64,000 nt of DNA, from NCBI RefSeq assembly GCF_009914755.1, contig NC_060931.1; one strand, 5' to 3'. This DNA is from the human T2T-CHM13v2.0 reference genome, Homo sapiens. Positions 12,665 to 16,608 of the stretch are shown here, piece by piece. The position numbers were made by a program, and so were the translations under genes. Position 1 is the first letter of the stretch; each line of letters starts with the position of its first letter. The notes below the pieces were generated by a model. It saw nothing but the letters and a program-made list of their open reading frames with translations. It did no database searches and was not told where the DNA came from.

Positions 12665-12968
12665 TTCTTCTTCTTCTTTTTTTTAAGACAGGGTCTCACT
12701 CTGTCACCCAGGCTGGAGTGTCATGGCGCCATCTAAGACTGGCTGCGACCTCTGCCTCCGGGACTCAAGTGATCCTCCCACCTCAGCTTCCCAAGTGGCT
12801 CGGACTACAGGCTCGTGCCACTACACCAGGCTAATTTTTGTATTTTTTTGTAGAGAAGGGGTTTTCCCATGTTGCCCAGGATGGTCTTGATCTCCAAACC
12901 TCAAGCAATCTGCCGGCTCTGGTCTCCCAAAGTGCTGGGATTACAGGAATGAGCCACCGCGCCTGGCC
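12665..12968 (-). mobile_element. AluJ
   Basis: Antisense dimer. Confidence 0.9.
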
Positions 12969-13388
12969 AACTTCCTGAATTATCGTTGTCTCCACACCTG
13001 CTTACAGTGCTGTTCCTCAGGTATCAAAGCATCCCAGCATGTTGTGCCTTTCTCCCCATCCTCCTCTACTTTCTCCTCTGTTGTGTACTGGTAACTCGGA
13101 ATCTCTGAATGGCTGTAGAAACAGAAAAGTGGATGGGACTGATGGAAAACCCAAATTTGGGTTTCAGAAAGCTATCTGTTGTTTGACATGCAGTCTAGAA
13201 TTAATGACTATACCAGGTTACCCTTGGAACATCTTGCATTTGTGGGCAGAAACATTTGGCTACTTGCCACGGGGTTATCCTGAAAAAAGATGGGCTTGAA
13301 AAACTGTCACTAGTGTCACTTGAATTGGTCATCCATGGTTGGGGAGTTCCATTCCAAGAGGATAATTTACACAATTTAAAATAAAGGG

Positions 13389-13685
<297 letters not shown>

Positions 13686-13693
<8 letters not shown>

Positions 13694-13915
13694 GAATAAA
13701 GGGAGTGAAAGCAAGAGGTGCTCTTCAAAATTATTATTTGCTCATTGGAGAAATACACGCATGTACTACTTTGTAGTAGTAACATTTTCATTAAACAATA
13801 GAAGCCTGGCTCCCACTTCTCCAAATGAAGTGGGGGGAAAAGTGTTGTAACTGGATGTCATGATCAGTCATCTCAATTATAAAAGTTAGGTGACATTGTC
13901 TCTTTGGGACGTTGT
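13686..13915 (+). repeat. Direct repeat copy 1 (230 bp), abutting LTR12 5' end
   Basis: AGTAAGTAGAATAAAGGGAGTG...CTCTTTGGGACGTTGT, about 95% identical to 14818-15049. Confidence 0.97.
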
Positions 13916-14803
13916 TGAGCGGTGAAGCCAGCTGGGCTTCTGGGTCGGGTGAGGACTTGGAGAACTTTTCGGTTTAGCTAAAGGATTGTAAATGCACCAA
14001 TCAGCGCTCTGTGTCTAGCTAAAGGTTTGTAAACACACCAATCAGCACTCAGTAAAAACGCACCAATCAGTGCTCTGTGTCTAGCTAATTGGGTGGGGAC
14101 CTGAATAACTTTTCTGTCTAGCTAGAGGATTGTAAACACACCAATCAGCGCTCTGTGTCTAGCTAAAGGTTTGTAAATGCACCAATCAGCACTCTGTAAA
14201 AACGCACCAATCAGCATTCTGTGTCTAGCCAAAGGTTTGTAAACGCACCAATCAGCACTCTGTAAAAATGGACCAGTCAGCACTGTCTAAAATGGACCAA
14301 TCAGCACTCTGTAAAATGGACCAATCAGCAGCATGTGGGTGGGGCCAAATAAGGGAATAAAAGCTGGCCACCCGAGCCAGTGGCGGAAATCCGTTGGGGT
14401 CCCCTTCCAAGTTGTGCCAGCTACATTCTTTCGCTCCTTGCAATAAGTCTTGCTACTACTCACTCTTTGGGTCCGCACTACCTTTATGAGCTGTAACACT
14501 CACCACGAAGGTCTGCAGCTTCACTCCTGAAGCCAGCGAGACCATGAACCCACCTGGAGGAACGAACAACTCTGGACGCGCCACCTTTATGAGCTATAAC
14601 ACTCATGGCCAAGGTCTGCAGCTTCCCTCCTGAAGTCAGCGAGACCAGGATCCCACCAGAAGGAAGAAACTCCAGACATGTCCGAATATCAGAAGGAACA
14701 AACTCCAGACACACCATCTTTAAGAACTGTAACACTCACCGCGAGGGTCCGCAGCTTAATTCTTGAAGTCAGTGAGACCAAGAACCCACCAATTCCGGAC
14801 ACA
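13916..14803 (+). mobile_element. Solo LTR12 (ERV9/HERV9 LTR)
   Basis: Starts TGAGCGGTGAAGCCAGCTGGGCTTCTGGGTCGG, has tandem CACCAATCAGCACTCTG repeats and GCTGTAACACTCAC U5 repeats, ends CCAATTCCGGACACA; TG...CA termini. Confidence 0.95.
13995..14362 (+). promoter_or_regulatory. LTR12 U3 promoter: 9 CCAATCAG (NF-Y) boxes plus TATA-like AATAAAA at 14356-14362
   Basis: Motifs counted directly; NF-Y-driven promoter activity is established for ERV9 LTRs, but activity of this copy is unknown. Confidence 0.6.
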
Positions 14804-14817
14804 TTTAAATACAAATT

Positions 14818-15049
14818 AGTAAGTAGAATAAAGGGAGTGAAAGCAAGAGGTGCTCTTCAAAATTATTATTTGCTCTTTGGAGAAGAAATACACACATGTA
14901 CTACTTTGTAGTAATAACATTTTTATTAAACAATAGAAGCCTGGCTCCCACTTTTCCAAATGAAGGGGGGAGAAAGTGTTGTAATTGGATGTCATGATCA
15001 GTCATCTCAATTGTAAAAGTTAGGTGACACTGTCTCTTTGGGACGTTGT
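14818..15049 (+). repeat. Direct repeat copy 2 (232 bp), 14 bp after LTR12 3' end
   Basis: Manual alignment to 13686-13915: about 10 substitutions, one 3-bp and one 1-bp indel. Confidence 0.97.
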
Positions 15050-16608
15050 GACCAGGCCATGTGAATGGAGATTGTTGAAGGATAGGCCTCTCTCCACCAG
15101 GTATGCCAATCACGGGGGTAGGGGTGGTGACTCTTCTGTTTGGATGTTTAAAATGTACATTAAACAGACAAAATAAAATACGAATTAAAAAAAACTAAAA
15201 AACTTCTTATCACCAAAGGGCAGAAAAAAACCTGTGTAAATAATACCTTAAATTAAAATTAAGAAATTAAAAGGCAACTTGTTAATAAAAAATCTTTTGA
15301 TCCAACTTTTTTCCTTAGAATTCTAAATCTTATGTTCACTCCCTTATAACAAGTGTCAATTAATTAGAAGCTGGTAAAAATAAGGAAGTTTACCCTAATT
15401 GCTGGCTGGTGTTTTTTAGTATAGGAGTATGTGAAGAAATAAAGCTTTTTTCCCAACTCGTTTGAAGGCAGTTTGTACTGTTTTGATTTGAGAATAGGAG
15501 ACACATGATTTATCATTTAAGAATGTGCTTCTTAATCCTTTGCACCAATGATGCTTTTTGTGGAAATTCTCTACTAAACATGGTATGTGATGTTATCTTC
15601 CCTTTAAAGTGTTTTTCCCCACTTTGGCCAGTTTTGATGTTTATCATCTCTCTCTATAAGTGTTTTGATGAGATGTTGAGAGGCGTACTGGTATGGCTGT
15701 CTGCTGCCATGCTGACCCAGAAGTAGGAACTACTTTTGCTGCATTCCCTGATATTCCATCTGGCTGTAATGATATTCCCAGAGTGTTCCAGATATTTATA
15801 TGCATCTGATACAAAGTTATTATGAATTAAAAACATAAACCTGGCTTTGCAACTTGACTATATCAGGAGGAAAGTTGTTATTGGTTCATGACTTTTTGAT
15901 AAGTCTGTTACCAAGTATTTTTAAGCCATTAGGCCTTCAAGCCAAGTGATAGTCCCTGAGTAACAATGGAGGAAGCACCACTTAATCTAAGTTGCATGTG
16001 GAGGTGACAAAATCTGAGAGCTTTTAATGATTCATCCACCCCATTTAACTTAGGGCTACAAGGAAAAGTACTCTTTATGCAGTAGTTTCTCATGTAAAAG
16101 TGGGAAATTTTCTCTTCTTGGCACAATTCCACAAATACATAGATATATCCCTTTTCAAGAAAATAATGCCAGCCTCACCTTAAGTTTCTTATTTTAGGAT
16201 TGCAAATTCTAAATTATTTATTTTTGGAGTAGCCACAGAAAAATTCTGAACCTGGGCTGACTCACCCAACACAAAATGTTTTGACATAATCTTCCTTGTT
16301 TGGATTGTTGAAAGAGAATGTAAATTTATCTTACTATTAGCTTAGCTCAAACAATGAGGAAGTTAAGTTAATTGGTATGAAGCCACATTTTCTGTATTGA
16401 AGATGCATTCACAGGACAATTTTTGTTTTAGCTTTTTAGAGTCAGTGTCTTTATCATCAGTGGAGATACAAAATATATGAATATGGTTAGATCCCGTCTA
16501 ATTTGTCATGCACTTAGCAAAAACAACCCGAAAAACAAAAGGCAGTTTTCATTTATATTCATTTGGAAAATACACTTTTAAATTATTATTATCAGAAATC
16601 TAATTATA

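What the first reader, a model, noticed from the sequence alone, without database searches (positions are those of the whole stretch)
13686..15049. Solo LTR12 flanked by a ~230-bp direct duplication instead of a 4-bp TSD
Seen: 13686-13915 ends exactly at the LTR's 5' TG and recurs at 14818-15049 (about 95% identical), 14 bp after the LTR's 3' CA. No 4-bp TSD is present (TTGT versus TTTA). The duplication starts inside the tail of the upstream AluS and includes that Alu's 3' TSD, so it postdates the Alu. Known: ERV1 integrase normally makes ~4-bp TSDs; rare very long TSDs are attributed to one-ended integration finished by host repair. Inference: this is a fossil aberrant ERV9 integration, with a clean 5' join and a repair-made 3' join. 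The repeats could also allow near-precise excision of the LTR by recombination.
Basis: partly seen in the sequence, partly recalled or inferred. Interest (0 to 1): 0.8.

Follow-up and report, generated by a model that had tools for sequence, protein, structure and literature searches.

The report
Retroviral LTR flanked by 230-bp duplication
An ancient retroviral remnant in a human intron is bracketed by a 230-base copy of its own insertion site, most likely because only one end of the virus was inserted properly and the cell patched in the other, a rare accident already known from another human retrovirus family and from laboratory infections.

Summary
A solo ERV9-type LTR (13916-14803, + strand) sits between two direct copies of a 229/231-bp host segment, 13687-13915 and 14819-15049. 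The copies differ by 8 substitutions in 227 aligned bases and 3 indels. The segment occurs nowhere else in the genome. There is no 4-bp TSD (TTGT versus TTTA), although 15 of 15 intact-ended solo relatives have one (11 perfect, 4 at 3/4).

New here: the 15-nt spacer starts with TTT, the bases that separate the LTR's CA from the primer-binding site in 4 of 5 related 5' LTRs. Only about 1.3% of other LTR12 3' ends are followed by TTT. The 5' join carries no extra viral bases.

This fits one-ended integration: integrase joined the U3 end, and host repair joined an unprocessed U5 end, duplicating the host DNA.

Caveats:
- No cross-species test was possible.
- The flank copies are less diverged than the LTR's own private divergence predicts (5.65% per lineage against about 1.8%).

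Long TSDs of up to 250-450 bp are already published for HERV-K(HML-2), and the mechanism is known from ASLV and HIV experiments. I file this as a new member of a known kind, of moderate interest.

The parts
13380..13388 (+). 5' target-site duplication of the upstream Alu (AATAAAGGG)
   Evidence: The same 9-mer recurs at 13695-13703 after the Alu tail, and at 14827-14835 inside copy 2.
13389..13686 (+). Alu element with an A-rich tail ending in a run of 7 A. It predates the duplication.
   Evidence: Sequence read. There is an inverted partner Alu upstream (I1). The Alu identity is by recalled hallmarks, not by a family search.
13687..13915 (+). Flank copy X1 (229 bp). It starts with the non-A end of the Alu tail (GTAAGTAG) plus the Alu's 3' TSD, and ends in TTGT directly at the LTR's TG.
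   Evidence: Unique in the genome apart from X2.
13916..14803 (+). Solo ERV9/LTR12-type LTR, 888 bp, TG...CA. Its U3 carries 10 CCAAT-bearing repeat units and its U5 side carries 3 repeats of about 94 nt. It lies in the sense orientation within a SUGCT intron.
   Evidence: D1-D4; 4631 first-look candidates, best other copy 87-88% identical. Ends confirmed against 29 copies.
14804..14806 (+). TTT directly after the LTR's CA, read as the retained, unprocessed end of U5
   Evidence: Of 5 related 5' LTRs, 4 read CA|TTT+TGG... and 1 reads CA|TT+TGG.... Among 1291 genomic LTR12 3' ends with the same terminal 13-mer, 55 are followed by TTT. Of these, 38 are primer-binding-site junctions and 17 are not, the window's own included.
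14807..14818 (+). 12-nt filler (AAATACAAATTA) between the viral end and copy 2
   Evidence: No ungapped match with 2 or fewer mismatches to the 16-mer elsewhere in the window. The junction is unique in the genome. It resembles the Alu tail only weakly.
14819..15049 (+). Flank copy X2 (231 bp), continuous with the downstream host sequence
15176..15187 (+). Possible template of the 12-nt filler (AAATACGAATTA, 11/12; the mismatch is at a CpG)
   Evidence: One of only 3 non-self hits with 1 or fewer mismatches in 64 kb on both strands. It lies 127 bp downstream of X2. Rough chance of one within 400 bp is about 0.04. This is a lead only.

Best explanation
This is a germline fossil of a one-ended (aberrant) ERV9 integration. 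Integrase processed the U3 end of the viral DNA and joined it to the host at what is now 13915/13916. The U5 end was not processed, so it kept the 3 nt beyond CA, and it was not joined by integrase. Host polymerase and repair enzymes then re-copied about 230 bp of host DNA lying to the left of the insertion point, back into the tail of the neighbouring Alu. They attached the free viral end to that copy through a 12-nt filler. This produced host-X / provirus / TTT+filler / host-X. Later recombination between the two LTRs left the solo LTR. Shown directly: the anatomy, the uniqueness of X, the missing 4-bp TSD, the asymmetry of the two junctions, and the order Alu first, duplication later. Inferred: that all of this was one event, which enzymes acted, and that a provirus preceded the solo LTR.
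For: (1) Both borders of a genome-unique 230-bp duplication coincide with the two ends of the LTR, at 0 nt and 15 nt. (2) The family normally makes 4-bp TSDs. Of 17 solo copies in the comparison set, 11 have a perfect TSD, 4 have 3/4, and 2 have damaged ends. The window has 2/4. (3) Long flank repeats are not a family habit: 0 of 29 comparison loci and 0 of 13 further loci. (4) The 5' join is canonical. The AT that precedes TG in the 3' LTRs (...GGGGAT|TGAG; 6 flagged by the script, 1 more by eye) is absent, and the GT in front of the LTR is host sequence, since copy 2 also ends ...TTGT. (5) The 3' join carries TTT, the bases between CA and the primer-binding site in 4 of 5 unselected 5' LTRs; the fifth has TT. 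Only about 16 of 1252 other non-proviral LTR12 3' ends (1.3%) are followed by TTT. (6) The filler has an 11/12 match 127 bp downstream, as expected if a host polymerase copied nearby templates. (7) Experiments give the same anatomy: one normal junction, one aberrant junction, host duplications of hundreds to thousands of bp, and several appended templates (PMC5041404, passages read). (8) Long TSDs flank HERV-K(HML-2) LTRs, and one has 2 extra nt at a junction (PMC5488345).
Against: Dating is in tension with a single event. X1 and X2 differ at 8 of 227 sites (3.5%, about 1.8% per lineage). The LTR has 37 private differences in 655 conserved columns (5.65%), the second highest of 30 copies, with no APOBEC-type G>A excess (5 G>A). 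If the LTR's post-insertion divergence were 3.9-5.65% per lineage, 8 or fewer differences in X would have Poisson P between 0.008 and 5e-5. At 2.6%, counting only the 17 strictly unique differences, P is 0.17. Two points soften this. The 5'/3' LTR pairs of two related proviruses differ by 35/660 and 34/664 on conserved columns, which is not significantly more than X (Fisher p = 0.37). And 6 of the 37 private states are shared with a copy of another subfamily. TTT could also be partly the first TT of a displaced normal TSD (TTGT). The filler match is weak, at p about 0.04 uncorrected. No empty site or outgroup was seen, so the claim of one event is inference.
Confidence: 0.6

Rival explanations
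1. A normal integration with TSD TTGT was followed, while the insertion was still polymorphic, by a double-strand break at the LTR's 3' edge. The break was repaired from the LTR-free homologue. The downstream end copied leftwards into X, which adjoins it on the empty allele, and was then end-joined to the LTR through a short filler.
For: The sequence can be parsed as LTR | 15 nt + X minus its last 4 nt | TTGT + downstream, so a displaced intact TSD cannot be excluded. A filler with a possible nearby template fits end joining.
Against: It needs a second, independent break exactly at the LTR boundary. It explains TT but not the third T. It does not relieve the dating tension, because it must also happen soon after integration.
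Confidence: 0.12
2. Both viral ends were joined by integrase, but at target positions about 245 bp apart, giving a true very long TSD. The 15-nt spacer would then be a diverged copy of the Alu A-tail rather than filler.
For: The spacer is A-rich with one C. With gaps it matches the Alu tail at 8-9 of 13-15 positions; this was counted by eye from the sequence, and one search shows a comparable gapped alignment. HERV-K long TSDs are described as directly abutting the LTRs (PMC5488345).
Against: Five T's stand in the spacer where the tail has A, which is far more change than the 3.5% seen in the adjoining 227 bases. The intasome holds the two ends a few bases apart (PMC5041404 background). TTT equals the viral unprocessed end.
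Confidence: 0.08
3. This is a pseudo-TSD. A tandem duplication of X, with a 15-nt junction insert, existed first, and the ERV9 then happened to insert at its junction. Or the duplication arose long after the LTR by replication slippage.
For: Kahyo et al. raise the pseudo-TSD model for HML-2 (PMC5488345 discussion). The lower divergence of X relative to the LTR's private branch would fit a later duplication.
Against: A normal insertion into a pre-existing duplication should still carry a 4-bp TSD, and it does not. A pre-existing duplication should be older than the LTR, not younger. A later duplication has no reason to start and stop at the LTR's ends. X is otherwise single-copy in the genome.
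Confidence: 0.07
4. Two independent ERV9 insertions lay 230 bp apart in the same orientation on different haplotypes. A crossover between their LTRs gave X-LTR-X.
For: A single crossover gives exactly this order, with mismatched flanking tetramers. Recombination between proviruses is an established source of missing TSDs (recalled: Hughes and Coffin).
Against: It needs two polymorphic insertions within 230 bp at the same time. It also predicts that the bases right of the LTR continue the Alu tail, which they match only poorly.
Confidence: 0.03

Closest known systems
HERV-K(HML-2) LTRs and proviruses with unusually long TSDs (Mamedov et al. 2004, seen only as a citation; Kahyo et al. 2017, PMC5488345, abstract, passages and discussion read)
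   Same: An LTR or provirus is directly flanked by long direct repeats of unique host DNA: 250 bp at 7p21.2 and 111 bp at 6p25.2 (validated by empty alleles), and 61-450 bp inferred at other sites. One case has 2 extra nucleotides at a junction. Recombination between the long repeats can restore an apparently empty site.
   Different: A different virus family: ERV9, which makes 4-bp TSDs, not HML-2. This insertion is much older, with 3.5% divergence between the flank copies against 0-0.9% there. No empty allele is known here. This locus has a 15-nt junction insert whose first 3 nt match the unprocessed viral end. In the passages I read, that paper proposes no integration mechanism; the words 'integrase' and 'mechanism' occur 0 times.
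Aberrant one-ended integration of ASLV vectors with a defective end, and of HIV-1 under suboptimal integrase inhibitors or with weak integrase mutants (PMC5041404, passages read; the Oh/Chang/Hughes papers seen only as its references)
   Same: One junction is normal and the other abnormal. Host DNA next to the site is duplicated by hundreds to thousands of bp. Short pieces copied from nearby templates are appended to the free viral end.
   Different: Those are somatic events in cultured cells, with engineered or drug-induced defects. Here the event is natural, in the germ line, fixed, and collapsed to a solo LTR. In those experiments the aberrant viral end is often truncated, whereas here it is complete with 3 extra bases.
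Ordinary solo LTR12 elements
   Same: The same ends, the same U3 CCAAT repeat architecture and the same U5 repeats (review PMC11853044, passages read).
   Different: Ordinary copies carry a 4-bp TSD: 15 of 15 intact-ended solo copies have at least 3/4. None of 42 examined has long flank repeats.

Membership tests
ERV9 / LTR12 solo LTR | Sequence similarity over the whole LTR to the genomic LTR12 population, with the family's TG...CA termini | tested here: met
4631 first-look candidates, of which 40 were scored; best other copies are 87-88% identical; the termini agree with 29 copies. No Repbase or Dfam library was available.
ERV9 / LTR12 solo LTR | U3 enhancer made of about 41-nt tandem repeats with CCAAT and GATA motifs, plus repeats in U5 (review PMC11853044) | tested here: met
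   10 CCAAT-bearing units spaced 41/25 nt, and 3 U5-side repeats of about 94 nt.
ERV9 / LTR12 solo LTR | Relatives occur as paired LTRs of proviruses with a primer-binding site and a polypurine tract | tested here: met
   of 29 copies, 5 are followed by TTT(T)GG... primer-binding-site-like sequence and 7 are preceded by ...GGGGAT. The assignment of the site to tRNA-Arg is recalled, not tested.
ERV9 / LTR12 solo LTR | 4-bp target-site duplication | tested here: not met
   TTGT versus TTTA. This is the anomaly under study. It does not affect the identity of the LTR.
Long-TSD HERV insertion (as described for HML-2) | The LTR is bracketed by long direct repeats of otherwise single-copy host DNA | tested here: met
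Long-TSD HERV insertion (as described for HML-2) | The pre-integration allele or an outgroup holds exactly one copy of the repeat | not testable with these tools
   No primate genomes or human structural-variant sets were available.
One-ended (aberrant) retroviral integration | One virus-host junction is canonical, with a processed end at CA/TG and no extra bases | tested here: met
   The 5' join has host ...TTGT directly at TG. The AT seen before TG in 3' LTRs is absent.
One-ended (aberrant) retroviral integration | The other junction is non-canonical, with viral bases missing or added, or with filler | tested here: met
   TTT plus 12 nt stand between CA and the host repeat. TTT matches the unprocessed U5 end and has a background frequency of about 1.3%.
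One-ended (aberrant) retroviral integration | Appended sequence copied from templates near the integration site | tested here: inconclusive
   An 11/12 match lies 127 bp downstream, at p about 0.04 uncorrected.
One-ended (aberrant) retroviral integration | The duplication and the insertion are the same age | tested here: inconclusive
   X1-X2 differ by 3.5%. Related provirus LTR pairs differ by 5.1-5.3% on conserved columns (Fisher p = 0.37). The LTR's private divergence is 5.65% per lineage.

The most novel reading that the evidence does not exclude
Long-TSD endogenous retroviruses in general may be fossils of one-ended integration, and they may still carry its fingerprint: an unprocessed viral end, with or without templated filler, at exactly one junction. 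If so, the rate and the polarity (U3 versus U5) of integrase failure in extinct retroviruses such as ERV9 and HML-2 could be read from genomes. The open question of true TSD versus pseudo-TSD raised for HML-2 could then be settled from sequence alone.
Probability: 0.3. Interest if true: 0.5.

Novelty: new member of a known kind. Interest (0 to 1): 0.35.

Why it matters
This case extends long target-site duplications from HERV-K(HML-2) to ERV9/LTR12, a different and much larger human retrovirus family. It also offers junction-level evidence, in a natural germline insertion, for the one-ended integration mechanism so far shown in cell culture: a retained 3-nt viral end on one side only.

In practical terms, the two 230-bp repeats could recombine and remove the LTR almost without trace. 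That would mimic an empty site and could mislead presence/absence phylogenetics or the calling of insertion polymorphisms. It changes no principle.

Tried and rejected
- **APOBEC3 editing at integration**, as a reason for the LTR's high private divergence: rejected. Only 5 of 37 private changes are G>A, and none is in a GG context.
- **X as a repeat family or segmental duplication:** rejected. There are 2 hits in the genome, both at this locus.
- **An exact or near-exact template for the whole 16-nt spacer in the window:** none found at 2 or fewer mismatches. Genome hits to the 25-nt junction at 3 or fewer mismatches are at control level: 6 non-self hits against 4 for the reversed control.
- **Closer relatives of the LTR,** sought to shorten its terminal branch: a second search with the R-U5 part found nothing above 88% identity.
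- **Maximum-likelihood tree of 30 LTRs:** star-like, with no well-supported inner branch. Its gamma-corrected branch lengths were not comparable with raw distances, so I used it only for ranking.
- **Wider scan of LTR12 flanks:** Only 29 + 13 loci were examined.
- **Oh et al. 2006 (PMC1317513):** not held.
- **L1-mediated retrocopy of an LTR transcript:** considered and dropped. There is no poly-A at either end, and the termini are exact TG...CA.
- **The similarity between the Alu's 5' flank and the LTR end plus spacer (CACA.TTTAAA.TA):** judged to be low-complexity coincidence and not pursued.

Full report
**What is there**

The window region 13380-15190 reads, on the + strand, as follows:
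- an Alu (about 13389-13686) with its 9-bp TSD, AATAAAGGG, at 13380-13388 and 13695-13703;
- a host segment X1 (13687-13915);
- an 888-bp LTR (13916-14803);
- 15 nt of spacer (14804-14818);
- a second copy of the host segment, X2 (14819-15049), which runs without a break into the downstream sequence.

**Is the repeat real?**

X1 and X2 align over 227 columns with 219 identities, 7 transitions, 1 transversion and 3 indel events. That is 3.5% substitutions, K2P 0.036, 95% CI 1.5-6.8%.

A search of the whole 3.1-Gb assembly with X1 returns only these two places (E 1.7e-113 and 1.6e-94). X is therefore unique host DNA and not a dispersed repeat.

As a control, I compared the 400-bp flanks of other LTR12 loci. 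The best local alignment scores 7-12 in 29 of 29 comparison loci, against 189 here. Thirteen further LTR12 loci, examined over about 1.2 kb upstream and 600 bp downstream, show nothing either.

**The LTR and its ends**

The LTR has 4631 first-look relatives in the genome. Forty were scored, and the best are 87-88% identical.

It has the architecture that a recent review gives for LTR12 (PMC11853044, passages read):
- ten CCAAT-bearing U3 repeat units spaced 41/25 nt;
- three repeats of about 94 nt on the U5 side.

Alignment of the termini of 29 relatives fixes the family's ends as TGAG... and ...GGACACA. The window copy has both.

The comparison set breaks down as follows:
- 5 copies are 5' LTRs, followed by a primer-binding-site-like sequence.
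- 7 are 3' LTRs, preceded by ...GGGGAT (6 flagged by the script, L011 by eye).
- 17 are solo. Of these, 11 have a perfect 4-bp TSD, 4 have 3 of 4, and 2 (L009, L022) have damaged ends.

The window copy has TTGT against TTTA, 2 of 4. The normal signature of concerted ERV9 integration is absent.

**The two junctions are different**

At the 5' side the host sequence ...GGGACGTTGT abuts TG directly. Copy X2 also ends ...GGGACGTTGT, so these bases are host. The AT that lies between the polypurine tract and TG in proviral 3' LTRs is not present. This is what an integrase-processed, integrase-joined end looks like.

At the 3' side, CA is followed by TTT, then AAATACAAATTA, then X2. In the unselected comparison set, 4 of 5 5' LTRs read CA|TTT followed by TGG..., and the fifth reads CA|TT followed by TGG.... 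TTT is therefore what the unprocessed U5 end of this virus would carry beyond CA.

To judge chance, I counted the terminal 13-mer of the LTR in the genome:
- There are 1291 hits, against 94 for the reversed control.
- 55 of them are followed by TTT.
- All 55 were inspected (plus L025). Thirty-eight are primer-binding-site junctions and 17 are not, the window's own included.

So only about 16 of 1252 other non-proviral ends (1.3%) are followed by TTT.

**The filler**

The 12-nt filler has no close ungapped copy elsewhere in the window when the whole 16-mer is used. The 25-nt junction is unique in the genome.

The 12-mer alone has just 3 non-self matches with 1 or fewer mismatches in the 64-kb window on both strands. 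One of them, AAATACGAATTA at 15176-15187, lies 127 bp downstream of X2 and differs only at a CpG. The rough chance of such a hit within 400 bp is 0.04. I treat it as a lead.

**Mechanism**

The anatomy matches the aberrant integrations that the Hughes laboratory describes for ASLV vectors with one bad end, and for HIV-1 under suboptimal integrase inhibitors or with weak integrase mutants. From passages of PMC5041404:
- One junction is normal.
- The other viral end is used by a host polymerase as a primer on nearby templates, and several pieces can be appended.
- The end is then joined by host recombination.
- "Most commonly" the host DNA is duplicated by hundreds or thousands of bp.

Applied to this locus:
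1. Integrase joined the U3 end at 13915/13916.
2. The unprocessed U5 end (...CA+TTT) was extended or joined by host enzymes.
3. About 230 bp to the left of the insertion point, reaching back into the non-A end of the Alu tail, was copied a second time.
4. LTR-LTR recombination later left a solo LTR.

The order of the Alu and the duplication is shown by the sequence. X2 carries the tail end GTAAGTAG followed by the Alu's TSD, not the Alu's 5' flank.

**The dating check**

- On columns where at least 24 of the other 29 copies agree, the window LTR has 37 private differences in 655 (5.65%). That is the second highest of 30; the others range from 2.9% to 5.5%, except L009 at 9.4%.
- Seventeen of the 37 are unique among the 30 copies, and 6 are shared with L009, a copy of another subfamily.
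- There is no APOBEC-type G>A excess.
- A star decomposition of raw distances in the R-U5 part gives the window copy a branch of 0.084 against a median of 0.064.

X1 and X2 differ by 3.5%, about 1.8% per lineage. If X evolved at 3.9-5.65% per lineage, 8 or fewer differences would be very unlikely (Poisson P from 0.008 to 5e-5). At 2.6% P is 0.17.

Against this, the 5'/3' LTR pairs of two related proviruses (L005/L011 and L031/L024) differ by only 35/660 and 34/664 on conserved columns. That is not significantly more than X (Fisher p = 0.37). In those proviruses 4-6 of the "private" states are shared by both LTRs, so they predate integration.

The tension could be relieved in three ways:
- a source element that already differed from the family's centre;
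- gene conversion between two 230-bp repeats 0.9 kb apart;
- the slower decay of an AT-rich, CpG-poor flank (37.5% GC with 2 CpG, against 48.6% GC with 24 CpG in the LTR).

None of these was shown.

**Rivals**

- A pre-existing tandem duplication hit by a normal insertion should still have a 4-bp TSD and should be older than the LTR. Neither holds.
- A much later duplication has no reason to begin and end at the LTR's ends.
- A break at the LTR's 3' edge, repaired from the empty homologue, gives the same final order and cannot be excluded from the sequence, because the TTGT at the end of X2 could be a displaced TSD. It needs a second coincidence and does not explain the third T.
- Two integrase joins 245 bp apart would require the spacer to be a diverged Alu tail. 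Five T's where the tail has A argue against that.
- Two neighbouring insertions joined by a crossover are the least likely.

**Comparison with what is known**

Long TSDs flanking HERV-K(HML-2) LTRs are published: 250 bp at 7p21.2 and 111 bp at 6p25.2, both with empty alleles, and up to 450 bp inferred (PMC5488345; abstract, passages and discussion read). That paper cites Mamedov et al. 2004, which I saw only as a reference. It leaves open whether the repeats are true TSDs or "pseudo-TSDs". It notes one case with two nucleotides between repeat and LTR.

I found no report of a long TSD for ERV9/LTR12 in four full-text searches. The LTR12 review does not contain the words "target site". These searches cover only the held open-access library.

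**Verdict**

- The aberrant-integration reading is the best supported, at about 0.6, and gains junction-level support.
- It remains unproven without outgroups.
- It is a new family member of a known phenomenon, not a new kind of event.

Noticed in passing
window 14441-14446: The LTR's polyadenylation hexamer reads AATAAG here. AATAAA is intact in 23 of the 29 comparison copies. The LTR lies in the sense orientation within a SUGCT intron, where a working poly-A signal would be expected to be harmful.
   Followed up: partly
window 12844-12973 and 13384-13513: An inverted pair of Alu elements, 78% complementary over 130 nt and 410 nt apart, lies just upstream of the duplicated segment (I1/I2).
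   Followed up: no
L056 (G000:C6:104851826, - strand): Another short-type LTR12 whose CA is followed by TTTT but by no primer-binding site. It has no 4-bp TSD (1 of 4) and no long flank repeat within 400 bp. It may be a deletion-type aberrant integration or a truncated provirus.
   Followed up: partly
window 14785-14803; L009: The window LTR lacks a 10-nt stretch near its 3' end that most short-type copies have. It shares this with L009 and with the longer LTR12 type that has a 5' extension, while its 5' end is of the short type. So it looks intermediate between subfamilies.
   Followed up: partly
L082-L085 (G000:C24, four places): Four Y-chromosome ERV9 5'-LTR/primer-binding-site junctions are identical over the 56 nt fetched, presumably copies within ampliconic repeats.
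   Followed up: no
L062 (G000:C7:158060709-158060856) and L080: In L062, two LTR12 3' ends lie 132 bp apart. In L062 and L080 the primer-binding-site-like sequence is followed by LTR-like U5 sequence rather than leader, which suggests local rearrangement.
   Followed up: no
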